Source: a virus. From it: a stretch of DNA of 64,000 nucleotides. A program made the translations under genes and the position numbers. The DNA is taken from IMG/VR virus record IMGVR_UViG_3300047560_001714, positions 64,001 through 128,000 of that record; one strand, given 5' to 3'. Below the pieces are notes generated by a model. The model was not told where the DNA came from, searched no databases, and saw only the letters and a list, made by a program, of their open reading frames with translations. Positions 1,982 through 43,890 of the stretch are shown piece by piece. Every line of letters begins with the position of its first letter. The first letter of the stretch is position 1.

Positions 1982-2540
1982 TAATAATTAAGGCACCTAT
2001 CAGGCAACACTCAGGCACACACACTTCATATGATACTCGCACCGGTAAGGAAAATAGGTGCCGCGAGATAAGGGATGTACTCCGCTTAGAGCGAACTGGG
2101 ATGAAGCAGTAAACTTAGCAACTACCCGAAAGGATGATGATTGGACATGCCTTCCCATATAACCAATTTTGCTATTTTAAGGAACCATAGGCTAAATGAG
2201 GGTTAAAAACCCACCTTATACATATATGATTAGTGTATATATGTATAAGCACCGTCAGACATAAGAAACAAAAACGCGCTTCGAGGTACCGGCTGACCGC
2301 CTCTGTAATTAGCGTAACACTAGTGTCCGTGATTAAGTAACTCAGATGAAATCACTGGATAATTTTTGAATACCATTTGTATTCAAATTTTTTTGCTCCC
2401 GTAAGGGGGCAATAATGTCCGAAATATCATAATCTAGATGAATATATATAAAGAAACATAATTAAACATCATGTCTCTATAATTAATTAAAAAAGATTGT
2501 GAGGAACGTAAGTGACGAACAGGGGAACATTGTTCCCCTT
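1982..2540 (+). ncRNA. Candidate large structured ncRNA (class unknown)
   Basis: No ORF of 60 aa or more. Many stems: GGCACCTAT/ATAGGTGCC, CTTATACATATA/TATATGTATAAG, TTTGAATAC/GTATTCAAA, TTGCTCCC-GTAA-GGGGGCAA, terminal AGGGGAAC-ATT-GTTCCCCT. Confidence 0.45.
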
Positions 2541-4479: not shown

Positions 4480-4554
4480 GTCGCTATCGTCTATCGGTTA
4501 GGACACAAGATTTTCATTCTTGTAAGCGGGGTTCGACTCCCCGTAGCGACGCCA
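4480..4554 (+). tRNA. tRNA-Glu(TTC)
   Basis: CAAGA-TTTTCAT-TCTTG; CCA. Confidence 0.93.
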
Positions 4555-4563
4555 ATTAACAAA

Positions 4564-4640
4564 CTCCCATTAGCGCAGTCTGGTAGCGCGATCCGTTTGG
4601 GGCGGATAGGTCGGCGGTTCGAATCCGTCATGGGAGACCA
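4564..4640 (+). tRNA. tRNA-Pro(TGG)
   Basis: ATCCG-TTTGGGG-CGGAT; CCA. Confidence 0.93.
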
Positions 4641-6029: not shown

Positions 6030-6106
6030 GGCGGTGTAGCTCAGTTGGTTAGAGCAATCCTTTCATACGGGATAGGTCGTAGGTTCGATTCCTACTGTCG
6101 CCACCA
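6030..6106 (+). tRNA. tRNA-CAT (elongator Met or Ile2)
   Basis: ATCCT-TTCATAC-GGGAT; CCA. Confidence 0.88.
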
Positions 6107-6114
6107 ACTAAATT

Positions 6115-6189
6115 GCCCTTATCGTTTAATGGATAGGACATGGGATTTCTACTCCCAGAATGGAGGTTCGATTCCTTCTAAGGGTGCCA
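6115..6189 (+). tRNA. tRNA-Arg(TCT)
   Basis: TGGGA-TTTCTAC-TCCCA; CCA. Confidence 0.9.
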
Positions 6190-9490: not shown

Positions 9491-10026
9491 TCAACAAAGA
9501 TGCGTTCTCGAATGGCCAAATTGATAGTAAACTATGGTTATGCCAAGAATTAGAAAATTTAGAATGGACGTCAGAACTAACGCAAATATACGGTGGATGG
9601 TATGGAATTACCGCATTTTTATTATTAAGTCGTGAAAAATTCAAAGTAACGCGCATAGAAAGTTATGATATTGACCCATCGTGTCAGGTTATTGCTGATA
9701 TGATTAATGAAAATTGGGTATTTAAAAATTGGCAATTTAAAGCACATACCGCTGATTGTAATAATATATTAACACAGCCAGATTTAATTATTAATACCTC
9801 AACTGAACATTTTGATGAAATGGACTGGTTTCATAACATAAAACCAGGTACACGAGTGATATTACAAGGCAACAATATGCCACATGACGATCACTTTATA
9901 CACAGTCAATCACTTAAAATGTTTATTGACAACTACCCATTAACTAGTATATACTATACTGGTGAATTAGATTTTAAATACCCATCTTGGGGATTCACTA
10001 GATACATGATTATCGGTGTGAAATAA
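9487..10026 (+). CDS. SAM-dependent methyltransferase-like protein
   Basis: YGGWYG motif I, SYDID, INTSTEH. Confidence 0.65.
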   Translation: MINKDAFSNGQIDSKLWLCQELENLEWTSELTQIYGGWYGITAFLLLSREKFKVTRIESYDIDPSCQVIADMINENWVFKNWQFKAHTADCNNILTQPDLIINTSTEHFDEMDWFHNIKPGTRVILQGNNMPHDDHFIHSQSLKMFIDNYPLTSIYYTGELDFKYPSWGFTRYMIIGVK

Positions 10027-10046
10027 TCATATCACTAAATATTGTT

Positions 10047-10502
10047 ATGTTAAATATATACACAAAAGAATTGATGGGTAGTTTTAAAAATATTAATGAT
10101 AAGATTGACAAATTAAACGAAATTGGTGTAACATATACACGGATTGATCTTGATGGTAGTTACATTGGTGAAATAAAGTTCTTGCATAATGTTCCTTATC
10201 ATGATACAATATCTGTAAATGAAAATACTGAGAATTATCCAGAATTAAGAAACAAGTTTAAACGTGAACATACTCATGATGACTTTGAAATGAGATTATT
10301 CACACACGGTACAGCATCTTTTTTCATAAATGCTAATGATTTAGTTTATGAATTAGTTGTTGGACCAGCTGATTTAATCAGTATACCAGCTAATACCAAA
10401 CATTGGTTCGATGCTGGTGACAACCCAGACTTTTCGGCAATTAGGTTTTTTACAGACGAAGATGGATGGATTGCAAAATATACTGATGAAAAAAATGCTT
10501 GA
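10047..10502 (+). CDS. mtnD: Acireductone dioxygenase (methionine salvage)
   Basis: EHTH.D.E metal motif, GPADLISIPANTKHWF, IRFFTDEDGW. Confidence 0.85.
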   Translation: MLNIYTKELMGSFKNINDKIDKLNEIGVTYTRIDLDGSYIGEIKFLHNVPYHDTISVNENTENYPELRNKFKREHTHDDFEMRLFTHGTASFFINANDLVYELVVGPADLISIPANTKHWFDAGDNPDFSAIRFFTDEDGWIAKYTDEKNA

Positions 10503-10527
10503 CAAGTTAAAAAGATAAGTGTATAAT
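10499..10527 (+). promoter_or_regulatory. sigma70 promoter for tRNA/ncRNA operon
   Basis: TTGACA-17nt-TATAAT. Confidence 0.8.
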
Positions 10528-10544
10528 TTGTCACATATTGAAAC

Positions 10545-10556
10545 AGTTCTTTAACA
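10545..10556 (+). promoter_or_regulatory. rrn-type boxA antitermination-like site
   Basis: AGTTCTTTAACA, 10/12 match to E. coli TGCTCTTTAACA, in the transcript leader. Confidence 0.5.
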
Positions 10557-10562
10557 AATTAT

Positions 10563-10639
<77 letters not shown>

Positions 10640-10643
10640 ATAT

Positions 10644-10775
10644 AGGATCTTAACAGCATATTCTATTTGCCTTCTAAGCACGAGATGTGGGTTCGAATCC
10701 CACACGTAATTTGCGGACTAATGTAGCAAATAACGTTAGCTTAACGGGATAGAGCACGATAAAAATAAGATCCTG
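10644..10775 (+). ncRNA. CAGCA-stem element E5: circularly permuted tRNA-Arg(TCT)-like body
   Basis: AGGATCT|TAACAGCAT, TGC-CTTCTAA-GCA, T-arm GTGGGTTCGAATCCCAC, closed acceptor hairpin, D-arm TAGCTTAACGGGATAGAGC, AGATCCT|G. Confidence 0.75.
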
Positions 10776-10783
10776 ACCCTTAT

Positions 10784-10900
10784 AGGTTTCTAACAGCAAG
10801 TATTATGGGGATCGGAAATGGTAGGTTCGAGTCCTACTATGCAGTCGTATGATTGCATAAGGGCTACGGGTGGTGCCGCCGATTATAAAAATGAAACCTG
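10784..10900 (+). ncRNA. CAGCA-stem element E6: YrlA-like (T-arm, closed acceptor, D-arm)
   Basis: AGGTTTC|TAACAGCAA, ATCGG/CCGAT, GTAGGTTCGAGTCCTAC, TATGCAGTC-GTAT-GATTGCATA, GAAACCT|G. Confidence 0.75.
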
Positions 10901-10909
10901 TTAATTTTA

Positions 10910-11025
10910 TGAATGCTAACAGCAATTTAATAACACCTGACGTGTCGTGAGTTCGAATCTCACCGTGTAAGTAATTACACGTAGCTCAGTTGGTAGAGCA
11001 TCTGGCCATAAAAAAATGCATTCAG
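10910..11025 (+). ncRNA. CAGCA-stem element E7: YrlA-like (T-arm, closed acceptor, D-arm)
   Basis: TGAATGC|TAACAGCAA, GTGAGTTCGAATCTCAC, CGTGTAA-GTAA-TTACACG, TAGCTCAGTTGGTAGAGCA, GCATTCA|G. Confidence 0.8.
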
Positions 11026-11034
11026 TATATATTT

Positions 11035-11096
11035 TGGTTGTTTTCAGCAATTTTAAAGATTCGATTTCTTATTTTTCCCAGGTGGGATACAACCAG
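11035..11096 (+). ncRNA. CAGCA-stem element E8 (T-loop-like hairpin)
   Basis: TGGTTGT|TTTCAGCAA...AAGA-TTCGATT-TCTT...ACAACCA|G. Confidence 0.6.
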
Positions 11097-11343
11097 TAAC
11101 TTTTGACTTTTGGTAACACTATGTTTATACTTATTACTGCTGAATCAATTATATTATTATTAACAATATACTTTGGTTGGCGTATTTGGACAAAGATTTC
11201 AAACAAAATTACGGAGTTTTTCAAATGACTACTGATACATCGGATGATGAAGCTGTTTTAACAATGGACCCCGAAACTTTTGCAAAACTGTTTCGAGATG
11301 AACTTGAAAAGCTTAAACAAAAGCAGAACGACGCACAATAATT

Positions 11344-11430
11344 GGAAGGTTGCCAGAATGGTATTGGAGCGGATTGCTAATCCGTCAACGGGAAACCGTT
11401 GTATAGGTTCGAACCCTATACCTTCCGCCA
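11344..11430 (+). tRNA. tRNA-Ser(GCT)
   Basis: GCGGA-TTGCTAA-TCCGT; long variable arm; CCA. Confidence 0.93.
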
Positions 11431-11443
11431 ATTACCTATAAAT

Positions 11444-11510
11444 TGGATACATACAGCATATTTAAAATCACTGCAAATGACCTTTCCGGGTGATAACCGG
11501 AGGTATCCAG
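11444..11510 (+). ncRNA. CAGCA-stem element E9 with Cys(GCA) and Ile(GAT)-like anticodon hairpins
   Basis: TGGATAC|ATACAGCAT...TCA-CTGCAAA-TGA...TCCGG-GTGATAA-CCGGA...GTATCCA|G. Confidence 0.7.
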
Positions 11511-11532
11511 ATTAAATTTTAAGGAGACATTT

Positions 11533-11760
11533 ATGAGAATAGTAGTCCCAGCGTACCACGTACCAGTTGTTGCAAATTATATTTCAAGAGCACCATATGT
11601 AATTTGCCCAAAAGATGCGTTGGTATTAAATCGTTATGATGTTGGAACACAAAAAGAAACTGCTGATGTATTATTCTATACATTATATGCAGGTGGTGGG
11701 ATACATATGCATCGCGTTAAAGATGTGTCTGAAATAAACACAATAAACGTATACGCATAA
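11533..11760 (+). CDS. Hypothetical protein
   Basis: AAGGAG Shine-Dalgarno. Confidence 0.6.
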   Translation: MRIVVPAYHVPVVANYISRAPYVICPKDALVLNRYDVGTQKETADVLFYTLYAGGGIHMHRVKDVSEINTINVYA

Positions 11761-11784
11761 AAATTTAACAATAAAAAATAATAT

Positions 11785-11859
11785 TCCCTAATAGCTCAGT
11801 GGTAGAGCAGACGGCTGTTAACCGTCCGGTCGGTGGTTCGAGCCCATCTTAGGGAGCCA
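11785..11859 (+). tRNA. tRNA-Asn(GTT)
   Basis: GACGG-CTGTTAA-CCGTC; CCA. Confidence 0.95.
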
Positions 11860-11883
11860 ATTTAACATTAAAAAGGAAATGCT

Positions 11884-12036
11884 ATGAGCAATTGGCACGG
11901 TGGAAAGGGTTCTAAACAACGACCCTTTGATAGACAAAAATTTTCAGACAACTGGGACGCTATCTTTAAAAAAACCCCAGATAACGTCCAAGAAAATAAA
12001 CCAAACCAAGAAAAAGATGACAATGAAAAAAAATAA
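11884..12036 (+). CDS. Small phage protein (GGKGS..RP...NWD.IF type)
   Basis: AAGGA Shine-Dalgarno; 50 aa MSNWHGGKGSKQRPFDRQKFSDNWDAIFKK... Confidence 0.65.
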   Translation: MSNWHGGKGSKQRPFDRQKFSDNWDAIFKKTPDNVQENKPNQEKDDNEKK

Positions 12037-13540
12037 AATAGTAATTGTCGGGGGCGGTTCAGCTGGATGGATTACGTTATCATATTTATCAGCAACCACC
12101 GACGCTGAACTAGTATTAATCCACTCAAATGAAATCGATTCTATTGGAGTTGGCGAAAGCACAACACCAACTATTAAACATATTGCGGAAACCGTTGGCG
12201 TACCGGAATACGAATGGATGAAACAATCCAAAGCAACATTTAAATACGGTGTTGATTTCCATGACTTTAACAGTTTAGGTTCACGATGGGTACATACCTT
12301 TGATGATATGATACCACATCAGGCATTTACTAGACCATTATGCGATAATGGTAAAGAAGAATTTAAACGTGATTTGACTAGTGTTGATTATTTTTTACAT
12401 CATTATGGTAAAGATGTTTCATTATTTAACGAAACCCATGGACCACAAGAATACTTGATAAAAAATAAATTAAGTCCATTTAATAAAAATGGAATTAACA
12501 ATATAAACAAATTTCCAGGATATGGGTATCATGTTAATGCATTTGAATTTGGAAAATGTTTAAAAAATCACGTACCAGAAACCCGATATGAAGAAATAAA
12601 CGCAACCATAATTGAAGTTGTAGAAAATAATGATGGTATTGAGTACGTTGTATTAGACACTGGTGAAAAAATCTATGGTGATATATTCTTTGATTGCTCT
12701 GGGTTTACTAGGGTACTTATGAAAAATCTATCAACCTGGGATTCATATACTGAATTAGTAAATGACCGTGCAATATGGGGTGAAATTCATAATGTTACCT
12801 CAGACGAACCAGTTACGGGTGTATATGCGCAAGAATCAGGATGGATATGGACTATCCCAACATGGAACCAAATTGGTTCTGGGTATGTATATTCTAATAA
12901 ATTTAGTTCTGATGAACGGGCCGAAGAAGTAATTACAGACTTTTGGCGTGAACGTGGTTACAAATTTGTTAAAAGAAAACAAGTTGCGTTTGACGCCGGA
13001 AGATTAAACAATGTTACATTTAAAAATGTAATTAGCAATGGATTGGCCCAAAGTTTTATAGAACCATTGGAAGCCACCAGCTTAATGATTACGTGCGTAA
13101 CAGTACGCAGTTTTAGTGATTTATACAATAAGCATAAAATATGGAGTGCAAAAACTAGTTCAATTCATGATCGAATAATGAAACGGTTTATTGACCATAC
13201 TAAAAAGTTTGTTCTATATCATTATAGACTATCTGAAAGAATAGATACACCATATTGGCGGTCAGTTGGTAACGATCCAACCGCAGTGCAAGAGGTATCT
13301 GATTATATAGATATTTTGGCATCAAGTAAATGGGTTGGCAAAGGGGATACCCTATTGAATCAATGGAACTGGGTAAGTATGCTCCTTGGCTTTAATAAAA
13401 AATATACTAATAAATTAAAATCAGATGTTGACATTGACGATTATTTATTATATAATAAAACCTTAATTTATCATTACCAGTCATTAGTTGGTCAAAATAT
13501 TCCAATACTTGATTTGTTAAATAAAATTAATAATACTTGA
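12017..13540 (+). CDS. Tryptophan halogenase-like flavin-dependent enzyme
   Basis: GGGSAGW, GVGEST, DCSGF, GWIWTIP, FIEPLEATS; true start at 12017 or 12023. Confidence 0.88.
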   Translation: MTMKKNKIVIVGGGSAGWITLSYLSATTDAELVLIHSNEIDSIGVGESTTPTIKHIAETVGVPEYEWMKQSKATFKYGVDFHDFNSLGSRWVHTFDDMIPHQAFTRPLCDNGKEEFKRDLTSVDYFLHHYGKDVSLFNETHGPQEYLIKNKLSPFNKNGINNINKFPGYGYHVNAFEFGKCLKNHVPETRYEEINATIIEVVENNDGIEYVVLDTGEKIYGDIFFDCSGFTRVLMKNLSTWDSYTELVNDRAIWGEIHNVTSDEPVTGVYAQESGWIWTIPTWNQIGSGYVYSNKFSSDERAEEVITDFWRERGYKFVKRKQVAFDAGRLNNVTFKNVISNGLAQSFIEPLEATSLMITCVTVRSFSDLYNKHKIWSAKTSSIHDRIMKRFIDHTKKFVLYHYRLSERIDTPYWRSVGNDPTAVQEVSDYIDILASSKWVGKGDTLLNQWNWVSMLLGFNKKYTNKLKSDVDIDDYLLYNKTLIYHYQSLVGQNIPILDLLNKINNT

Positions 13541-13576: not shown

Positions 13577-13765
13577 ATGACAGTAGCTAGTAAAGCAAAC
13601 CGAAAAGCGAATCCGCTTAAAACTAAAAATGACAAAACACGTATTAACGTGTTAAGTGACAAACAGTTAGTATTAGCATTAGAAAAAGCAACACGCGGCC
13701 GTGATAAATCAAAAATCAGAAGTCGTATTGCATTTAAACTTAAAAATCATTCACAACAACCCTAG
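13577..13765 (+). CDS. Small basic hypothetical protein
   Basis: ORF directly after promoter. Confidence 0.6.
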   Translation: MTVASKANRKANPLKTKNDKTRINVLSDKQLVLALEKATRGRDKSKIRSRIAFKLKNHSQQP

Positions 13766-13774
13766 AGGTGTATT

Positions 13775-13921
13775 ATGGCAGTAGAAGTAAAAAAATGTAA
13801 TTGCAGTGGTTCACTAGCGGCTAAGTTCCAAGATAAAGAATATGGTCAAGGAATGCGCGTTATGAATCAAACCTTGAAAAAAGAATACAATTGTACAGTT
13901 TGTGGTGCAAAACACAAATAG
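13775..13921 (+). CDS. Small Zn-binding protein (CxC...QD..YG.G.RV.N...CxxC)
   Basis: GAGG Shine-Dalgarno; 48 aa with CNC and CTVC. Confidence 0.65.
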   Translation: MAVEVKKCNCSGSLAAKFQDKEYGQGMRVMNQTLKKEYNCTVCGAKHK

Positions 13922-13934
13922 TTACACCTAATTT

Positions 13935-14319: not shown

Positions 14320-14376
14320 TGGATACTTACAGCATATTAACTTCGACTTGAAACTTGAAAACAACTATGTATCCAG
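14320..14376 (+). ncRNA. CAGCA-stem element E11 with Ser(TGA)-like loop
   Basis: TGGATAC|TTACAGCAT...TTCGA-CTTGAAAC-TTGAA...GTATCCA|G. Confidence 0.65.
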
Positions 14377-14400
14377 AATTAAACATGTAGTGTAATCTGA

Positions 14401-14498: not shown

Positions 14499-14688
14499 AG
14501 AATAGTTTCAGCAACATACTACAAATAACTTACTGGAAATGGTATTTTATCGTGGGTTTTAGCCCAACAAAACCGATGGAATATCTAGTGTTGGTAGAAT
14601 ACCAAATAGGCTAGTAGAATACTAGATAGGATCTGGTTGGGTAGACCGAGACTGACTGAAAACTAATTTCACCCAAAAAGCTATTCTG
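14499..14688 (+). ncRNA. CAGCA-stem element E12 (long, multi-hairpin)
   Basis: AGAATAG|TTTCAGCAA...CTATTCT|G; internal hairpins TTGGTA-GAA-TACCAA and CTAGTA-GAA-TACTAG. Confidence 0.6.
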
Positions 14689-15291: not shown

Positions 15292-15387
15292 AGGTTAATT
15301 TCCGCATACCATTTTTCTCCAGAGATGTACAAGACCCCATTGATCAGTGGTGAGATATGAAAAATCTCAAATATGATCATTAACCTG
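15292..15387 (+). ncRNA. CAGCA-stem element E13 (CCGCA variant) with Phe(GAA)-like loop
   Basis: AGGTTAA|TTTCCGCAT...TGAGAT-ATGAAAA-ATCTCA...TTAACCT|G. Confidence 0.6.
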
Positions 15388-15851: not shown

Positions 15852-15887
15852 AGATTAGATACAGCAACTATTTTTTACACTAAACTG
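15852..15887 (+). promoter_or_regulatory. Minimal CAGCA-stem element E14 in the 5' UTR of the TROVE gene (candidate autoregulatory site)
   Basis: AGATTAG|ATACAGCAA...CTAAACT|G (6/7 bp), immediately before Shine-Dalgarno AAGGTG. Confidence 0.65.
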
Positions 15888-15900
15888 AAAGGTGAATTAC

Positions 15901-17304
15901 ATGACATTAATTGCAGAAAAAACAACAACAACAACAACAAATGGTATGGCGGCGTTAAACACATCAACGACAGCCCTTACCGATTTATTCTTTAACATTG
16001 GTGCTATGCGTGGTAAAGATATTATTCCACAATTCACCAGTGCATTATCTGAAAATCGTGAGTTAGCATTACGAATTGCACTATGGTCGCGTGATGCTCG
16101 TGGTGGCGCTGGTGAAAGACAACTTTTCAGAGATATTCTAAATCATTTAGAAAACACCGATGTTTCCGCCGCCGAAGCATTAGCAAACCGCGTTGGTGAA
16201 TTGGGCAGATGGGATGATTTGTTTGTGTTTAAAACCAAACATATGAAAGAATTTGGGTTTGAGTTAATTAAACAAGCGTTGGCAGCTAAGAATGGATTGG
16301 CAGCTAAATGGACCCCACGTAAAGGACCAATTTCGGTTGAATTACGCAAATACTTGGGTTGGAGTCCAAAGCATTATCGTAAAACATTGGTGGCATTGAC
16401 ATCAGTGGTTGAAACCCAAATGTGTGCTAATGATTGGGATAACATCAATTTCAGCCACGTGCCATCTGTTGCTAGTGCTAGATACAAAAAAGCTTTCAAT
16501 AGACATACACCTAAGTTTGCTGAATATGTTAATGCACTGGTTTCTGGTGATACATCAGTTAAAGTCAATGCTGGTGCAATCTATCCATATGATGTTTTAA
16601 GTGCGTTGAAAGGTTATAATGTTGATTCAACGATTAAAAACCATGTTATTGCACAATGGGCCGCATTACCAAACTTTGTTGGTGACGCTAATATTTTACC
16701 ATTAGTTGACGTTAGTGGTTCTATGTCGTGTTCAGCGGGTGGTAAAAACGCATCTCTAACTTGTATGGATGTTGCAGTTTCCCTTGGGTTGTATCTTTCA
16801 GATAAAAACTTAGGTGAATTCAAAAACAAGTTTATTACGTTTCATGAAAAACCAGAATTGATAACACTTGAAGGGGATATTGTTCAACAGAACCAGCAAA
16901 TGCTAAGATCAAAATGGGGCATGAGTACAAACTTGGAATCAGCATTTAACTTGATTTTAAATTTAGCAACCAGTTGCAATGTTCGTAACGCAGATATGCC
17001 AGAAATTTTGTTGATTTTATCGGATATGCAATTTAACCAGGCGGTTACATCTCCAAGTGATACCGCAATGGAAATGATTGAACGTGCATATGCCGCTGCT
17101 GGATATTCTGTTCCTAAAATTGTATTCTGGAATTTAAATGCAAGTGGGAATGTCCCAGTAACATCGGATAAATCTGGCGCAGCATTGGTATCTGGGTTCT
17201 CACCATCAATTATGACTAGTTTATTATCTGCCGATATGTCTGAGTTTACACCATACGGCATTATGATTAAAACAATCATGAATGAACGGTATGACCACCA
17301 GTAA
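15901..17304 (+). CDS. TROVE/Ro60-like protein with vWA domain (DUF2828-type)
   Basis: RDARGGAGER, GRWDDL, AAKWTPR, VNAGAIYPYD, VDVSGSM (MIDAS), LSDMQF, IVFWNL; start ATG 15901. Confidence 0.85.
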   Translation: MTLIAEKTTTTTTNGMAALNTSTTALTDLFFNIGAMRGKDIIPQFTSALSENRELALRIALWSRDARGGAGERQLFRDILNHLENTDVSAAEALANRVGELGRWDDLFVFKTKHMKEFGFELIKQALAAKNGLAAKWTPRKGPISVELRKYLGWSPKHYRKTLVALTSVVETQMCANDWDNINFSHVPSVASARYKKAFNRHTPKFAEYVNALVSGDTSVKVNAGAIYPYDVLSALKGYNVDSTIKNHVIAQWAALPNFVGDANILPLVDVSGSMSCSAGGKNASLTCMDVAVSLGLYLSDKNLGEFKNKFITFHEKPELITLEGDIVQQNQQMLRSKWGMSTNLESAFNLILNLATSCNVRNADMPEILLILSDMQFNQAVTSPSDTAMEMIERAYAAAGYSVPKIVFWNLNASGNVPVTSDKSGAALVSGFSPSIMTSLLSADMSEFTPYGIMIKTIMNERYDHQ

Positions 17305-17652: not shown

Positions 17653-17766
17653 AGGCAGTTTCGGCACTGTATAACAGTATTACTGCCTCGGCTGAAGCGA
17701 AATGACCGAAATGGGCTGCTCTCACGGGGTTTCTGTAGTTGTACCTGACACACGAGAACAACTACA
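17653..17766 (+). ncRNA. Candidate structured (pseudoknotted) RNA upstream of Pth2
   Basis: AGGCAGT/ACTGCCT stem; TTTCGG/CCGAAA cross-pairing; TGTAGTTGT/ACAACTACA hairpin. Confidence 0.4.
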
Positions 17767-17785
17767 TCTATTTTATGTGGATAAT

Positions 17786-18169
17786 ATGACAATTGAACCA
17801 AAACAAGTAATTGTAGTAAGAAAAGACCTTAACATGCGCAAAGGTAAAATGATAAGCCAAGGCTGTCACGCATCCGTAGGCGCAGTTCTTAAATGTATGA
17901 ACAAAGTGAACAAAGGTGATGATAGTAATTTTGATGCCTTAGAAGAATGGTTAGCCGGTCGATTCACCAAAATTTGTGTGTATGTTGAAAGTGAAAAAGA
18001 ACTATTAGATATCTACGCAAATGCAAAGGATGCCGCACTTAATGTTAAATTGATTAAGGACGCTGGTTTAACTGAATTTAATGGGGTACCGACTTTAACT
18101 TGCTTGGCAATTGGGCCAGATTACCCAGACAAAATAGATAAAATAACTGGCCATTTAAAGCTGTTATAG
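17786..18169 (+). CDS. pth2: Peptidyl-tRNA hydrolase, PTH2 (archaeal/eukaryotic-type) family
   Basis: KQVIVVRKDL.M.KGK...Q..HAS, KICV.V.SE.EL, DAG.TEF...TLTCLAIGP. Confidence 0.92.
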   Translation: MTIEPKQVIVVRKDLNMRKGKMISQGCHASVGAVLKCMNKVNKGDDSNFDALEEWLAGRFTKICVYVESEKELLDIYANAKDAALNVKLIKDAGLTEFNGVPTLTCLAIGPDYPDKIDKITGHLKLL

Positions 18170-24631: not shown

Positions 24632-25342
24632 TTAATGCCTATGTAATAAATGTGACATGACTACCGCAACATTATCAGAGGTCAATGGTATATTTAATAT
24701 TAAATGAATACTGTCATCCACCCAAGATATTGTTCTATGAGTTTGCATTGTGTTTACATAATATGCTCTCCCCATCTCAATAGACATCTTTTTATCGACC
24801 CCTTGAATCCAATCATAATCCATGGGTGAACAGTTATTTAAAAAGACCACAATACGAAATACATCTCTAGGCATTACAGGGTGATCTCTGTGTGGAACAA
24901 AATATCCGCCTATATTTGACTTTATTAAAAATGATCTGCCTAGCGAATCGAATAAACTTAATATTGGGCGTAAACTATGACAACTATGATACACATCGGT
25001 TGGTGAATTGAATAATAACTCCGAAAGTTTGTTTCCGCCAGCCCGAACAATTGCTTCTGCTAAACTAGGATCCTCATTATGCAATTTTCCTGGTAAATTA
25101 TATAACACCAATGCTTGTCTATTGTTAACACGGTCGGTTCTTGGTAAGTAATCCACCCATTCCCCATCATATTTTGCTATTTCTTGCATAAATGACGCAC
25201 AATCAATCTTTATATCTAACGGCTCAAAATCGCCAATTTTGGACAAAGATACCTCATTTGCTAGTGTTTCTAAATTGATATTTTCCGAATTATATATTGG
25301 TCGTTGACCAGATGATCCAGGCGGTACTTTTATTTGTTCCAT
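24632..25342 (-). CDS. Asp/Asn beta-hydroxylase-like 2OG-Fe(II) oxygenase
   Basis: GGYFVPHRDH, NT..TH; paralog of 22343..22993. Confidence 0.75.
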   Translation of the reverse strand: MEQIKVPPGSSGQRPIYNSENINLETLANEVSLSKIGDFEPLDIKIDCASFMQEIAKYDGEWVDYLPRTDRVNNRQALVLYNLPGKLHNEDPSLAEAIVRAGGNKLSELLFNSPTDVYHSCHSLRPILSLFDSLGRSFLIKSNIGGYFVPHRDHPVMPRDVFRIVVFLNNCSPMDYDWIQGVDKKMSIEMGRAYYVNTMQTHRTISWVDDSIHLILNIPLTSDNVAVVMSHLLHRH

Positions 25343-41076: not shown

Positions 41077-42446
41077 CTAATGAAGAAAGAATTAGAATTT
41101 TAGACGAAAAGCGAGAAAAAATCGATGAAATAAGTCCTAGTTTTTGCACAGCAAAATGGTTGCAAACAACTTTATATCTACAAAACGGGTATAACCATAG
41201 TTGCCACCATCCTAGTCCTCATAAGATTCCACTTGCTGAAATTAAAATAGATCCTGCGTCATTGCACAATAGCTCTTTTAAAAAGTCGCAACGTGTTATG
41301 ATGAAGCAAGGTCAACGACCGCCTGAATGTGAATATTGTTGGAAAATTGAAGACCTTAATAAAAATTATTTTTCTGACAGGCATTATAAAACATCTGATA
41401 CGTGGGCATGGCCCCGATTTGATGAAATTGCCGCATCTGATCCTACCATTAACGTATTTCCGAGTTACCTTGAAGTTAGTTTTAGTAATGCATGTAACTT
41501 TGCATGTGCGTACTGTTCTCCAGAAATAAGCAGTAAATGGATGGAAGACATAGTTGAGTACGGCCAATATCCAACTGAACATAGCAGTCATAGTCTAAGT
41601 TATTTAGAGAGTGTCGGTAAGATGCCGTATAAAAACAATGAAGAGAATCCATATGTAGATGCATTTTGGCAATGGTTCCCAGAAGCGTTACCTAACTTAA
41701 AAGTTCTTCGAATCACTGGTGGCGAGCCCACTATGGCAAAATCAATGTGGCGATTGTTAGATTACCTAATTGAGAATCCAAATTTAGATCTAAATATTGC
41801 GATTAACACAAATGCATGTGTTGACAATAAACTGATTGATAAACTAATCGAAAAGATCAACAAATTAACAGAGATTGGGATATCTGTTGATATATACACA
41901 AGTCTAGAAAGTATTGGTGAGCAAGCCGAATATGTGAGAGATGGGTTATCATACGATCAATGGTGTAGGAATGTACATCGTTTTCTCTCCGAAACTTCGT
42001 CAACAGTTTCATTAATGACAACTATTAATATATTGAGTCTTCCGACTTTTACGAAGTTCATCTCATTAATTATGGAATTTCGTAAAATTTACAATAAAGA
42101 TTTTGCATACAATCGAATCCCATTAAGTATAAATTACTTACGGTGGCCACCGCATTTGCAAGCAACGCTGTTGGATCAAGATACTAGGACAACTTATGCA
42201 ACTGAAATTGAAGAGTTTTGCGAACAATGGTTGAAATACTATAGTCCAGAACTTTATGCAAGAATTTACCTTGAAGAGTTTGATCAAATAAAAAGATTCT
42301 GTGATTATTTAAGAACATCCGTCACTGAATTAAATTACAGAAAAGACTTTGTGAACTATATAAATACATACGATTTTCGACGAGGAAAAAATTTCGCAGA
42401 ATGTTTTCCAGAATATAAAAACTTATTAGAGAAGTGGAATGCCTAA
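41073..42446 (+). CDS. Radical SAM protein (twitch-type N-terminus)
   Basis: C.AKW..SCHHP, CNFACAYC, ITGGEP, INTN. Confidence 0.9.
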   Translation: MTNEERIRILDEKREKIDEISPSFCTAKWLQTTLYLQNGYNHSCHHPSPHKIPLAEIKIDPASLHNSSFKKSQRVMMKQGQRPPECEYCWKIEDLNKNYFSDRHYKTSDTWAWPRFDEIAASDPTINVFPSYLEVSFSNACNFACAYCSPEISSKWMEDIVEYGQYPTEHSSHSLSYLESVGKMPYKNNEENPYVDAFWQWFPEALPNLKVLRITGGEPTMAKSMWRLLDYLIENPNLDLNIAINTNACVDNKLIDKLIEKINKLTEIGISVDIYTSLESIGEQAEYVRDGLSYDQWCRNVHRFLSETSSTVSLMTTINILSLPTFTKFISLIMEFRKIYNKDFAYNRIPLSINYLRWPPHLQATLLDQDTRTTYATEIEEFCEQWLKYYSPELYARIYLEEFDQIKRFCDYLRTSVTELNYRKDFVNYINTYDFRRGKNFAECFPEYKNLLEKWNA

Positions 42447-43890
42447 AAAACCAGAAGAAAGTTTAAAACAATACCGAATTCGTGTATTAGATAGCAAGAG
42501 CAATAGCTTTTGTGGTGCAAAGTGGTTTAATGCAACCACATGGTTAGGTAGCGGAACAACTGCTAGTTGTCATCACCCTCCTGCACACACTATTCCAATA
42601 TCCGAAGTAAACGAAAATTTTACAGCGATACATAACACCTCTCATAAAAAAGCAATGCGTCGAATGATGCAAGAAGGTGAAAGACCTCGTGAATGCGAAT
42701 ATTGCTGGAAGATGGAAGACATGGGTAAAGATGCTGTGAGTGATCGTGTTTTCAAAAGCATAATTTACACAGACGAAGAACTTGATATCGCATATAATAC
42801 ACATCAAGATGAAAACGTGCAACTTAAAACATTTGAAATCGCATTCGACCGAGTATGTAATTTAGCATGTTCGTATTGTAATGCATCTTTTTCAACTACA
42901 TGGGCTAAGGACATTAAAAACAATGGTCCTTATCAGAACTTAGTCAGTGACGGTGCAGGCGCGTATCATCATGCTGGAGATTGGGCTCAACCGTTTAAGG
43001 ATGATCAAGAAAATCCATACATACAAGCATTTTGGAAGTGGTGGGACAATGGTCTTTCGGACAGTTTGCAAGAACTAAGAATTACTGGCGGCGAACCTCT
43101 AATGAGTGGAAATACGTGGAAGTTAATGGATTGGTTCGAATCACAGAACTCAGATATTCGATTTGCGATTAATACCAACCTAATTGCAAAAAAAGATATT
43201 ATTGACGCACTAATAGATAAATCGCATAATATTAAGAATTTTGATTTATATACTAGCTGCGAATCAGTTGGTGCTCATGCTGAGTATATCCGAGATGGAT
43301 TAGATTACAATCTATGGTTAGCAAACTTGACTAGAGTTTTAACTGAAGCTCGTTATCATGAGGTAAATGTAATGATGACCATTAATAGTCTTTGCTTGTT
43401 TAGCATTACTGACTTTTTAGATGAAATTTATAAATTAAAAGAATTAACACAAAGTAAAAGTCCTGCTGTTAGTTTAAACTTACTTAGATTTCCTAGTTTT
43501 CAAAGTCCTCTCGCATTACCAACACACATAAAAGATGTATTGCATAAAAATCTTTCAGAATGGTACGAACAGAAAAAATCATTGCCGTATTGGGATACCT
43601 TTGAAAAAACAAATATTGAACGGTTAATCGATTACTTAATCACGGTTGATGCTCCACACCGCCGCACAAGTAATTCAATTACATTATGGAGAGATTTTAA
43701 AACATTCTATAAACAATACGATGTCCGTAGAAACAAAGATATAAATGTTTTCCCTCCGATATTAACCGAGTGGATTGAAAGTATTCCGGATACTGATTCT
43801 GCTATTCAAGAATTAGCTGAGAAAGAAGGTTGGATATTAACACCTGATAACAAAAATATAGATAACCCAACGGCAACATATGACAAATAA
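42439..43890 (+). CDS. Radical SAM protein (twitch-type N-terminus)
   Basis: CGAKW..SCHHP, CNLACSYC, ITGGEP. Confidence 0.9.
   Translation: MPKKPEESLKQYRIRVLDSKSNSFCGAKWFNATTWLGSGTTASCHHPPAHTIPISEVNENFTAIHNTSHKKAMRRMMQEGERPRECEYCWKMEDMGKDAVSDRVFKSIIYTDEELDIAYNTHQDENVQLKTFEIAFDRVCNLACSYCNASFSTTWAKDIKNNGPYQNLVSDGAGAYHHAGDWAQPFKDDQENPYIQAFWKWWDNGLSDSLQELRITGGEPLMSGNTWKLMDWFESQNSDIRFAINTNLIAKKDIIDALIDKSHNIKNFDLYTSCESVGAHAEYIRDGLDYNLWLANLTRVLTEARYHEVNVMMTINSLCLFSITDFLDEIYKLKELTQSKSPAVSLNLLRFPSFQSPLALPTHIKDVLHKNLSEWYEQKKSLPYWDTFEKTNIERLIDYLITVDAPHRRTSNSITLWRDFKTFYKQYDVRRNKDINVFPPILTEWIESIPDTDSAIQELAEKEGWILTPDNKNIDNPTATYDK

What the first reader, a model, noticed from the sequence alone, without database searches (positions are those of the whole stretch)
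10644..11025. Three tandem circularly permuted tRNA bodies inside CAGCA stems
Seen: each element has the order T-arm, acceptor stem closed by a loop, D-arm, so there is no free CCA end. E7 has a textbook D-arm (TAGCTCAGTTGGTAGAGCA) and a GTAA-capped acceptor. In E6 and E7 the anticodon stem is formed by distal strands (ATCGG/CCGAT; CCTGA/TCTGG) leading into the closing stem. E5 instead keeps an intact Arg(TCT) anticodon arm (TGC-CTTCTAA-GCA) 5' of the T-arm, so the permutation point differs. Established: T-acceptor-D order is the YrlA architecture. Inference: unchargeable tRNA-elbow mimics. Three divergent copies in tandem, one with a retained anticodon, is unusual.
Basis: partly seen in the sequence, partly recalled or inferred. 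Interest (0 to 1): 0.85.

Follow-up and report, generated by a model that had tools for sequence, protein, structure and literature searches.

The report
Phage tRNA-shaped partner RNAs of Ro60-like protein
Three neighbouring small RNA genes in a giant lake phage are back-to-front tRNA look-alikes that share a short conserved "handle"; this handle travels with a Ro60-shaped protein gene in hundreds of phages, so they are probably an undescribed branch of the Ro60/Y-RNA particle.

Summary
At 10644-10775, 10784-10900 and 10910-11025 (+ strand) lie three tandem ~115-130-nt elements. Each has a 7-9-bp terminal stem, an unpaired NNN-CAGCA-(A/U), a T arm, a closed acceptor hairpin, a D arm, an A-rich strand, the complementary stem strand and a G.

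They belong to a large family: I collected 138 distinct tRNA-like members from uncultured phages. All four helices covary (98.5% of cells paired, against 35-45% when the partners are slid), and the tRNA 15:48 tertiary pair covaries.

They are YrlA-like in the tRNA module only. Rfam YrlA matches positions 27-81 alone and stays below threshold. The GNCGAA Ro-binding motif is absent, and the record holds no TROVE gene. The partner gene is instead DUF2828/DUF7788 (15892-17304), whose model matches Ro60 over its full length (Z 16-10).

The handle and this gene co-occur strongly. A handle copy ends 21-26 nt before the start codon in 63 of 76 loci. Members occur in cultured phages: a Felix O1-like coliphage, mycobacteriophage Moostard and KVP40. 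In KVP40, "tRNA-Pseudo-3" is E5's homologue in the normal tRNA order.

Binding, expression and function are inferred, not shown. The scan had already noted this system in at least 17 other genomes. I found no paper that describes it.

The parts
10499..10527 (+). Consensus sigma-70-type promoter (TTGACA-17-TATAAT) upstream of tRNA-fMet and the three elements
   Evidence: 12 of 12 matches. No terminator-like site in 10300-11900, so co-transcription is plausible but inferred.
10563..10639 (+). Initiator-type tRNA-Met(CAT) with encoded CCA, directly upstream of E5
10644..10775 (+). E5: handle RNA with a tRNA-like body. Order: 9-bp terminal stem, CAGCAU (10654-10659), anticodon-loop-like hairpin UGC-CUUCUAA-GCA (10668-10680), T arm (10687-10703), closed acceptor hairpin (10704-10736), D arm (10739-10755), A-rich strand, stem, G.
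   Evidence: R1 76.7 bits. Rfam YrlA 21.8 bits on positions 28-81. A15:U48 pair. Homologous to KVP40 tRNA-Pseudo-3 in the other permutation.
10784..10900 (+). E6: handle RNA with a tRNA-like body. 7-bp stem, CAGCAA (10794-10799), distal 'anticodon' stem AUCGG/CCGAU (10811-10815 with 10879-10883), T arm (10821-10837), acceptor hairpin (10838-10859), degenerate D arm (10861-10877).
   Evidence: R1 71.6 bits. No Rfam YrlA match.
10910..11025 (+). E7: handle RNA with the most tRNA-like body. 7-bp stem, CAGCAA (10920-10925), distal stem CCUGA/UCUGG (4 of 5 pairs), T arm (10947-10963), 7-bp acceptor stem capped by GUAA (10964-10981), U8 A9, D arm (10984-10999), A-rich strand.
   Evidence: R1 97.4 bits. 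Rfam YrlA 37.7 bits on positions 27-81. G15:C48 pair.
11035..11096 (+). E8: fourth tandem handle element (UGGUUGU ... ACAACCA G, UUU-CAGCAA). Its short cargo keeps a T-loop-like hairpin (AAGA-UUCGAUU-UCUU) but no D arm.
   Evidence: Weak fold, z = -1.7.
15852..15887 (+). Cargo-poor handle copy in the 5' leader of the Ro60-like gene
   Evidence: In 63 of 76 related loci a handle element ends 21-26 nt (most) before the inferred start codon.
15892..17304 (+). Ro60-like protein gene (DUF2828 + DUF7788/vWA, 470 aa), the proposed protein partner
   Evidence: Pfam. PHROG 850 'RNA-binding protein'. The AF2 model matches Ro60 chains over its full length: Foldseek E 5e-8 to 1e-4 and VIA Z 16.3-9.6. Invariant DxSxS MIDAS motif D273/S275/S277.

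Best explanation
E5, E6 and E7 are three paralogous small non-coding RNAs of a phage family that I call handle RNAs.

Each RNA has two modules:
1. A conserved handle. It consists of a 7-bp helix formed by the RNA's two ends, an unpaired NNN-CAGCA-(A/U) on the 5' strand, an A-rich 3' strand and a 3' G.
2. An L-shaped tRNA mimic whose acceptor stem is closed by a loop, so the ends lie where the anticodon loop (E6, E7) or the 26/27 junction (E5) of a tRNA would be.

They are most likely transcribed with tRNA-fMet from the promoter at 10499 and cut out by the tRNA-processing nucleases. I propose that the handle is bound by the phage's own Ro60-like ring protein (DUF2828/DUF7788, 15892-17304). The tRNA-like module would then offer a tRNA elbow, and in E5 an anticodon-like loop, to tRNA-recognising factors. 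The RNP would thus work like Ro60 with YrlA-type Y RNAs: as a tether or gate that links the ring protein to tRNA-handling or RNA-degrading enzymes during infection, when the phage expresses its own tRNA set.

Shown here: the sequence anatomy, the covariation of all helices and of the 15:48 pair, the family's spread, its co-occurrence and fixed spacing with the gene, and the Ro60 fold of the protein.

Inferred: transcription and processing, protein-handle binding, and the tether, gate or decoy role.
For: - Anatomy.
- Family and structure: a MAFFT alignment of 29 members gives, by RNAalifold, the terminal stem, T stem, acceptor hairpin and D stem, with 19 of 23 pairs showing compensatory changes.
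- On 45 distinct sequences, 98.5% of cells pair, against 35-45% in slid controls. The covariation score is 0.748 against at most 0.137, and 0 of 500 shuffles reach it.
- tRNA invariants are kept: G53, U54, C56, A58 and C61 in 45/45, U55 in 41/45, A14 in 44/45, G18 in 43/45.
- The Levitt pair is G15:C48 in 15 sequences and A15:U48 in 14.
- Handle: CAGCA sits at nt 11-15 in 131 of 138 distinct members, and a 3' G is present in 137.
- Strand: all 195 model hits lie on the strand of the gene.
- Link to the protein, from the gene side: 80 loci fetched through the protein carry the RNAs. 42 of 42 loci with 5 kb of upstream sequence have handle elements, and 63 of 76 have one mostly 21-26 nt before the start codon.
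- Link to the protein, from the RNA side: an RNA-only pattern scan of IMG/VR gave 114 new loci. The gene lies inside the short fetched stretch in 32 of them. It is present in 12 of 14 whole records where the stretch lacked it, including 3 of 3 complete genomes. The rate among cultured phage records is 710 of 50,697.
- Operon-like arrangement: in mycobacteriophage Moostard, three handle RNAs, one tRNA-like at 76.9 bits, follow the 'Ro-like RNA binding protein' gene and end at a stem followed by a T run that looks like a terminator.
- Protein fold.
- The handle type tracks the protein type. Bxz1 has a TROVE Ro and no DUF7788. Its tRNA-like RNA has a long GC stem with GCCGAG/GCCGAAG and no CAGCA.
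Against: - No expression or end-mapping data.
- No binding data of any kind.
- The gene lies 4.9 kb from E7, not adjacent.
- The covariation counts use an alignment fitted to the model, although one search does not.
- The record is only about half a genome, so other partners could exist.
- The function of even the well-studied YrlA tRNA-like module is unknown (10.1101/312249), so the tether or gate role is an analogy.
Confidence: 0.72

Rival explanations
1. The tRNA-like handle RNAs act mainly as decoys or sponges for host tRNA-targeting factors, such as anticodon nucleases or tRNA-modifying or tRNA-degrading enzymes. The Ro60-like protein would only stabilise them or play no part.
For: - They lie in the phage's tRNA cluster.
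- 26 family members carry 7-nt loops fitting Y-U-NNN-R-N on hairpins of at least 4 bp, with many different 'anticodons': UCU, GUA, GAU, GUU, GCA, CAU and others.
- E5's loop CUUCUAA recurs in L081 and L043 on a different stem.
- A closed acceptor stem would make the RNA resistant to exonucleases (inference).
Against: - E6 and E7, like most members, have no anticodon loop at all.
- The loop sequence is not conserved among E5's own orthologues: CUUCUAA, AUUUGAA, AUUUGGA, and CUGUUAA in KVP40.
- The most conserved part of the RNA is the handle, which is shared with elements that carry no tRNA part. This points to a common binder rather than to tRNA mimicry alone.
Confidence: 0.12
2. They are true circularly permuted tRNA genes. 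The transcript is circularised or joined at the handle, the acceptor hairpin is opened by RNase P and RNase Z, CCA is added, and a chargeable tRNA results.
For: - The 3' half precedes the 5' half, as in algal and archaeal permuted tRNA genes (10.1101/312249, Discussion).
- E7 has a 7-bp acceptor stem. M. smegmatis YrlA, which also has a 7-bp stem, is cut by RNase P and receives CCA (10.1101/312249).
- The KVP40 homologues are in normal order, and two end in A73-CCA.
Against: - E6 and E7 have no anticodon loop. The distal stem opens into a 19-nt / 12-nt internal loop and then the handle.
- There is no bulge-helix-bulge motif, and bacteria have no known splicing endonuclease.
- The acceptor loops are 4, 4 and 11 nt without CCA, while 15 of the 17 tRNA genes in the window encode CCA.
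- In a permuted tRNA gene the flanks are discarded. Here the flanks (handle) are the most conserved part.
- No RtcB or Rnl2-type ligase was found in the 188-kb record, though it is only half a genome.
Confidence: 0.05
3. They are processing spacers or decayed tRNA debris of the tRNA cluster, with no function of their own. Alternatively they are DNA-level elements (small mobile inverted-repeat elements or recombination sites).
For: - They sit between tRNA genes.
- Tandem tRNA genes can mimic the T-then-D order. The weak YrlA and R1 hits at window 4527-4589 and 6046-6158 are such tRNA junctions.
Against: - Each element has its own perfectly paired acceptor hairpin and terminal stem, and neighbouring elements cannot pair across.
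- There are compensatory changes in every helix, and a tertiary pair covaries, across 138 distinct members from distant phages.
- Strand bias is strict: 195 of 195.
- Stems vary in sequence while pairing is kept, unlike transposon terminal repeats.
- They occur next to the Ro-like gene in Moostard, where only one annotated tRNA gene lies in the 9.4-kb stretch fetched.
Confidence: 0.04

Closest known systems
YrlA-type Y RNAs bound by Ro60/Rsr in bacteria and phages (Rfam RF02553; Chen et al. 2014, PMC4201824; structure: Wang et al., bioRxiv 10.1101/312249; Thermus phage phiLo Ro60 with Yrl1/2, PMC12135203)
   Same: - Modular RNA whose 5' and 3' ends pair into a terminal stem, with a short conserved unpaired motif on the 5' strand.
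- An effector module that is a tRNA mimic in the order T arm, closed acceptor stem-loop, D arm, optionally with a further hairpin 5' of the T arm ('V').
- tRNA elbow nucleotides and the 15:48 covariation are kept.
- Several copies can lie near the gene on the same strand.
- The partner is a HEAT-ring plus vWA protein.
   Different: - The handle is a 7-bp stem plus NNN-CAGCA-(A/U), an A-rich strand and a 3' G. YrlA has a long stem with GNCGAA(N)G, which is present in the first 50 nt of only 1 of 138 members here.
- Rfam YrlA matches only positions 27-81, at 37.7, 21.8 and 0 bits against a threshold of 69.
- The protein is DUF2828/DUF7788, not Pfam TROVE, with about 10-16% identity to solved Ro60 chains.
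- About ten more handle RNAs with non-tRNA cargo lie in the same cluster.
- Some members keep anticodon-like loops.
- The family exists in both circular permutations (KVP40).
Circularly permuted tRNA genes of red and green algae and some archaea (Soma et al. 2007, as cited in 10.1101/312249)
   Same: The 3' half (T arm, acceptor 3' strand) is encoded upstream of the 5' half (acceptor 5' strand, D arm). The primary transcript has a closed acceptor stem, and its ends pair beyond the anticodon stem.
   Different: - No anticodon loop can be rebuilt for E6 and E7.
- No bulge-helix-bulge motif.
- The flanking stem and motif are conserved rather than discarded.
- The host domain lacks the splicing endonuclease.
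- The elements co-occur with an RNA-binding ring protein.
KVP40 'tRNA-Pseudo-3, -4, -5' (NC_005083.2, annotated tRNA-OTHER pseudogenes)
   Same: They have the same handle (A-rich strand, 6-7-bp helix, G, NNN-C(A/U)GCA) and the same tRNA body. They lie in the tRNA cluster upstream of the KVP40 DUF2828 gene. E5 aligns with Pseudo-3 segment by segment: scores 66 against 34 +/- 4 and 40 against 22 +/- 3.5 for shuffles.
   Different: - The order is that of a normal tRNA. The acceptor stem is open, and in two of them it is followed by A73-CCA.
- The handle helix is closed by a short loop and sits in place of, or beside, the anticodon arm.
- The database treats them as pseudogenes. No function has been proposed.

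Membership tests
YrlA (Rfam RF02553; Chen et al. 2014) | tRNA-like module in the order T stem-loop, closed acceptor stem-loop, D stem-loop | tested here: met
   Rfam alignment to positions 27-81. Helices supported by covariation.
YrlA (Rfam RF02553; Chen et al. 2014) | tRNA tertiary-interaction nucleotides, including a covarying 15:48 pair | tested here: met
   G18, G19, U54, U55, C56 and A58 are nearly invariant. G15:C48 in 15 sequences and A15:U48 in 14 of 45. E7 has G:C, E5 has A:U.
YrlA (Rfam RF02553; Chen et al. 2014) | Score at or above the Rfam gathering threshold (69 bits) over the whole model | tested here: not met
   E7 37.7 bits, E5 21.8 bits, E6 no hit; only positions 27-81 of 114 match. 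Caveat: the classical TROVE-linked RNA of phage Bxz1 also reaches only 32.5 bits, so this test alone is weak.
YrlA (Rfam RF02553; Chen et al. 2014) | GNCGAAN0-1G motif near the 5' end (proposed Rsr contact) | tested here: not met
   Absent from E5, E6 and E7. Present in the first 50 nt of 1 of 138 family members. Present as GCCGAG/GCCGAAG in the Bxz1 RNAs.
YrlA (Rfam RF02553; Chen et al. 2014) | Encoded within about 4 kb of, and on the same strand as, a TROVE-domain Ro60 orthologue | tested here: not met
   No PF05731 match in the 188-kb record. The nearest Ro60-fold gene is DUF2828/DUF7788, 4.9 kb downstream on the same strand.
YrlA (Rfam RF02553; Chen et al. 2014) | Bound by Ro60/Rsr; modified by TruB and DusA | not testable with these tools
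   Needs immunoprecipitation or EMSA, and modification mapping.
Handle RNAs linked to DUF2828 (undescribed family seen by this scan) | 7-bp terminal helix, NNN-CAGCA-(A/U) on the 5' strand, 3' G | tested here: met
   All three elements. 131 of 138 and 137 of 138 in the family.
Handle RNAs linked to DUF2828 (undescribed family seen by this scan) | Co-occurrence with a DUF2828/DUF7788 gene on the same strand | tested here: met
   Gene at 15892-17304. Statistics.
Circularly permuted tRNA genes | 3' half upstream of 5' half, with a closed acceptor stem in the transcript | tested here: met
Circularly permuted tRNA genes | Joining the ends yields a 7-nt anticodon loop on a 5-bp stem, via a bulge-helix-bulge motif | tested here: not met
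   In E6 and E7 the distal stem opens into internal loops of 21/9 nt (E6) and 19/12 nt (E7), followed by a continuous 7-bp helix; there is no bulge-helix-bulge. E5 has a separate hairpin with only a 3-bp stem.
Ro60 / TROVE proteins (for the proposed partner) | Match to Pfam TROVE (PF05731) | tested here: not met
Ro60 / TROVE proteins (for the proposed partner) | HEAT-repeat ring plus C-terminal vWA domain with a MIDAS motif | tested here: met
   The AF2 model (pLDDT 71) aligns with Ro60 chains over about 380 residues at Z 16.3-9.6. The next hits are vWA-only at Z 8.6 or less. Invariant D273-x-S275-x-S277.

The most novel reading that the evidence does not exclude
DUF2828/DUF7788 proteins and CAGCA-handle RNAs form a second, phage-centred branch of the Ro60/Y-RNA world. 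Its RNAs are whole or partial tRNAs fitted with a protein-docking handle, and they exist in both circular permutations: closed acceptor here, open acceptor with encoded CCA in KVP40. Many carry real anticodon-type loops. The particle would survey, protect or imitate tRNAs during infection, for example against host tRNA-cleaving defences. Some members might be opened by RNase P into CCA-bearing, possibly chargeable, handle-tagged tRNAs.
Probability: 0.4. Interest if true: 0.85.

Novelty: new variant of a known kind. Interest (0 to 1): 0.7.

Why it matters
Ro60 and its Y RNAs are conserved from bacteria to humans, yet the purpose of the tRNA-like module of bacterial Y RNAs is still unknown.

The variants have different cargo, two circular permutations, and are with or without anticodon-like loops. 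All are tied to a divergent Ro60-fold protein that databases call only 'DUF2828' or 'RNA-binding protein'.

The family occurs in phages that can be handled in the laboratory: Felix O1-like coliphages, KVP40 and mycobacteriophages. The binding site, the partners of the tRNA module and the infection phenotype are therefore directly testable.

It would also re-annotate 'pseudo-tRNAs' and some spurious ORFs in phage tRNA clusters as genes for structured RNAs.

Tried and rejected
Expression is untested.
- TROVE, RtcB and Rnl2-type ligase families were not found in the 188-kb record. The record is about 51% complete, so absence is not shown.
- NCBIfam gave no name for the protein.
- A sequence search of PDB chains gave only a weak vWA hit. 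The fold search was needed.
- Reading neighbouring elements as normal tRNAs with a long insert (D arm of one plus T arm of the next): rejected for this window. The acceptor strands of neighbours do not pair, and the Rfam tRNA model gives only 16.6 bits at 10982-11071. In KVP40 that reading is the correct one.
- E5 as a recent derivative of the phage's own tRNA-Arg(TCT): no special similarity.
- A strict regex for closed-handle (normal-order) forms found no convincing case in the freshwater relatives, only KVP40.
- Literature: no relevant paper for 'DUF2828', for Ro-like + phage + tRNA, or for 'permuted tRNA' + phage. Two reviews (PMC10870794, PMC6047535) are not held. The PA5oct RNA-seq preprint reports ncRNAs, but nothing could be tied to this family.
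- The supplementary phage table of Chen 2014 is not held.
Full report
**Setting**

The window is bases 64001-128000 of a 188-kb IMG/VR virus record, estimated about 51% complete. It is an AT-rich giant phage. Seventeen tRNA genes, all on the + strand, lie between 4009 and 15477. The finding sits just after an initiator-type tRNA-Met (10563-10639). That tRNA follows a perfect TTGACA-17-TATAAT promoter at 10499-10527, and no terminator-like site occurs up to 11900.

**Observation**

Reading 10000-11700 and the repeat scan confirm three tandem units: E5 10644-10775, E6 10784-10900 and E7 10910-11025. Each unit has this order:
- a terminal helix (AGGATCTTA/TAAGATCCT, AGGTTTC/GAAACCT, TGAATGC/GCATTCA)
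- TAA-CAGCA-(T/A)
- a T arm of the GGTTCGANTCC type
- a hairpin in the acceptor position (11 bp with an 11-nt loop; 9 bp with GTAT; 7 bp with GTAA)
- a D arm
- an A-rich run, the 3' strand of the helix, and a G

E7 carries U8, A14, G15, G18, G19, A21, G53, T54, T55, C56, A58, C61 and C48. E5 has A15 with U48. E6's D arm is degenerate (a 3-bp stem).

In E6 a perfect 5-bp distal stem (ATCGG/CCGAT) stands for the anticodon stem. In E7 the equivalent has 4 of 5 pairs (CCTGA/TCTGG). E5 has no such stem. It has a small hairpin, TGC-CTTCTAA-GCA, 5' of the T arm.

Single-sequence folds are more stable than shuffles, with z = -3.7, -4.1 and -2.6. A fourth unit (11035-11096) has the same ends but only a T-loop-like remnant.

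**Relation to Rfam**

At gathering thresholds, nothing but tRNAs and one Polynucleobacter-1 RNA is found in the window. With relaxed thresholds, YrlA (RF02553) matches E7 at 37.7 bits and E5 at 21.8 bits, but only over model positions 27-81 of 114. Those positions are the T arm, acceptor hairpin and D arm. The gathering score is 69. So the tRNA-like module resembles YrlA, and the rest does not.

**The handle and the wider family**

The same ends (7-bp helix, NNN-CAGCA-A/T, 3' G) occur on about ten further elements of the tRNA cluster with unrelated, mostly short cargo. This was a lead from earlier notes, which I verified.

The cluster ends with a 470-aa ORF (15892-17304) that matches DUF2828 and DUF7788.

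I fetched 80 viral loci through the protein. A mechanical scan for the handle gave 341 hits on the gene's strand and 56 on the other. Dozens of hits contained T arm, hairpin and D arm.

A MAFFT alignment of 29 such RNAs folded with RNAalifold gives the terminal stem, T stem, acceptor hairpin and D stem. In 19 of 23 pairs there are compensatory changes.

A covariance model built from this alignment (R1) finds 195 matches in the loci, all on the gene's strand. On 45 distinct tRNA-like sequences:
- 98.5% of cells pair, against 35-45% when the partners are slid;
- the covariation score is 0.748, against at most 0.137;
- no shuffle out of 500 reaches the observed values.

That alignment is fitted to the model; one search is not. 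The elbow nucleotides are almost invariant. The 15:48 pair is G:C in 15 sequences and A:U in 14, which is the same covariation used to argue for a tRNA fold in YrlA (PMC4201824).

Three sub-architectures exist:
- ends in the anticodon loop (E6, E7);
- ends at the 26/27 junction with a hairpin 5' of the T arm (E5);
- hairpins on both sides.

**Independence of the RNA-protein link**

I scanned IMG/VR with an RNA-only pattern (AGGAT-N5-CAGCAW-N15-45-GGTTCRANTCC). In the 78 newly fetched loci that I searched, 107 places matched R1 at E < 1e-5. Results for the 114 new loci:
- A DUF2828 relative lies inside the short fetched stretch in 32 of 114. In every case I checked it was on the same strand, and often within a few hundred bases.
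- For 14 large records whose stretch lacked the gene, 12 hold one DUF7788 ORF of 470-580 aa. All three complete genomes are among them.
- Among cultured phage records the gene occurs in 710 of 50,697.
- In 63 of 76 protein-anchored loci a handle element ends shortly before the inferred start codon, in most at a nearly fixed 21-26 nt. All 42 loci with 5 kb of upstream sequence hold handle elements, and 22 hold T-arm-bearing ones by a strict test.

**The protein**

An AlphaFold2 model (27-sequence alignment, mean pLDDT 71) was searched against the PDB.
- Foldseek: the twelve matches at E of about 1e-4 or better are all Ro60/TROVE chains, aligned over their full length (Thermus phage phiLo, Xenopus, human, Deinococcus), with E from 5.5e-8 to 1e-4.
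- VIA-align: Z 16.3 (rmsd 4.9 Å over 387 residues) down to 9.6 for Ro60 chains. The next hits cover only the vWA domain, at Z 8.6 or less.
- A DxSxS MIDAS motif is invariant.
- Pfam TROVE does not match.
- PHROG 850 and RefSeq call the family 'RNA-binding protein', and SEA-PHAGES annotators call it 'Ro-like RNA binding protein'.

The Ro-like nature of the protein is therefore already suspected in databases. Its RNA partner is not described in anything I could search.

**Cultured phages**

- Mycobacteriophage Moostard: the Ro-like gene (DUF2828 by Pfam) is followed by three handle RNAs and then a stem followed by a T run that looks like a terminator. The middle RNA is tRNA-like, with R1 at 76.9 bits and Rfam YrlA at only 37.9.
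- Felix O1-like coliphage Alf5: the gene opens the tRNA array, which holds at least four handle RNAs. One is tRNA-like (66 bits) and lies under a minus-strand 'hypothetical protein'.
- KVP40: the annotated 'tRNA-Pseudo-3, -4, -5' are the same RNA in the other circular permutation. They have an open acceptor stem (two end in A73-CCA) and a D arm. The handle follows as an A-rich strand, a 6-7-bp hairpin, a G, and NNN-C(A/U)GCA. A T arm completes them. E5 and Pseudo-3 align segment by segment well above shuffles: 66 against 34 +/- 4, and 40 against 22 +/- 3.5.
- Control, Bxz1: it has a TROVE Ro and no DUF7788. The tRNA-like RNA before its Ro gene has a long GC stem and GCCGAG/GCCGAAG. It has no CAGCA, and R1 matches only its tRNA core (33 bits, handle columns deleted).

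Handle type thus follows protein type in the cases examined.

**Interpretation**

The most economical reading is a Ro60/Y-RNA-like particle. The handle would be the docking site of the ring protein. The cargo would be the effector module, here a tRNA mimic as in YrlA. I put this at about 0.7.

The steps not shown are transcription and processing, binding, and what the tRNA module does. For YrlA itself that last point is unknown (10.1101/312249).

*Decoy reading.* A role as a decoy for host tRNA-targeting factors is attractive because 26 members have anticodon-type loops with many different triplets. However, E6, E7 and most members have no such loop, and the loop is not conserved among E5's orthologues.

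*True permuted tRNA genes.* This is unlikely for four reasons:
- E6 and E7 have no anticodon loop.
- There is no bulge-helix-bulge motif.
- The acceptor loops hold no CCA, while 15 of the 17 tRNA genes here encode it.
- The part that would be discarded is the most conserved.

RNase P opening of the 7-bp acceptor hairpin of E7 cannot be excluded, because M. smegmatis YrlA is cut in this way (10.1101/312249).

*Debris or DNA-level elements.* These are contradicted by the covariation and by the strict strand bias.

**Novelty and context**

YrlA-type tRNA mimics next to TROVE Ro60 genes are known, also in 22 phages (PMC4201824; PMC12135203). New relative to that are:
- the handle;
- the DUF2828-type partner;
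- the many paralogues with exchangeable cargo;
- the anticodon-like loops;
- the occurrence of both permutations.

I class it as a new variant of a known kind. This scan had already reported the same system in at least 17 other genomes, and twice more on this genome. Those notes agree with what I tested here, but they are not independent evidence.

Noticed in passing
window 2034-2177 (+): Match to Rfam Polynucleobacter-1 RNA (RF01718): 53.6 bits against a gathering score of 37, full length. It lies between a 646-aa amidoligase-like ORF and the tRNA cluster. This is a structured RNA of unknown function in a phage.
   Followed up: no
L202 459-705 and 2256-2371 (KVP40, NC_005083.2 about 180967-181213 and 179301-179416): The annotated pseudogenes tRNA-Pseudo-5, -4 and -3 are normal-order tRNA bodies. 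Their anticodon region carries the handle (A-rich strand, 6-7-bp hairpin, G, NNN-C(A/U)GCA). Pseudo-3 and Pseudo-4 end in A73-CCA. They are probably functional RNAs, not decayed tRNAs.
   Followed up: partly
L201 14414-14540 (Escherichia phage Alf5, NC_031082.1 about 25088-25214): A tRNA-like handle RNA (R1 66 bits) lies on the + strand under the minus-strand CDS BIZ90_gp133 'hypothetical protein'. That ORF may be spurious. At least three more handle elements lie at about 13706-13773, 13873-13931 and 14327-14395 of the locus.
   Followed up: partly
L200 5428-5687 (Mycobacterium phage Moostard, MZ622183.1 about 42302-42561): Three unannotated handle RNAs follow the 'Ro-like RNA binding protein' gene gp54 and are closed by a stem followed by a T run that looks like a terminator. 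This is an operon-like unit in a laboratory phage.
   Followed up: partly
window 15852-15887 and the related loci L006-L085: A handle copy ends a nearly constant 21-26 nt before the start codon of the DUF2828 gene in most of the 63 (of 76) loci that have one. The spacing suggests translational autoregulation through the protein's own binding site.
   Followed up: partly
window 10047-10502, 11900-13540, 17702-18169: ORFs interleaved with the tRNA and handle-RNA cluster: an ARD-type cupin (acireductone dioxygenase family), a 546-aa tryptophan-halogenase-family flavoprotein, and a PTH2-type peptidyl-tRNA hydrolase just after the Ro60-like gene.
   Followed up: no
window 14499-14688 and 15292-15387: Two larger handle elements: a 190-nt one (AGAATAG ... 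CTATTCT G), and one with the CCGCA variant of the motif. Their cargo I did not analyse.
   Followed up: no
family alignments A4, A5: About a fifth of the tRNA-like members carry hairpins with C-U-NNN-A/G-A loops that spell many different anticodons (UCU, UGA, GUA, GAU, GAA, CCA, GCU, GUG, GUU, ACG, GCA, CAU, UAA). It looks as if different tRNAs had been recruited repeatedly.
   Followed up: partly
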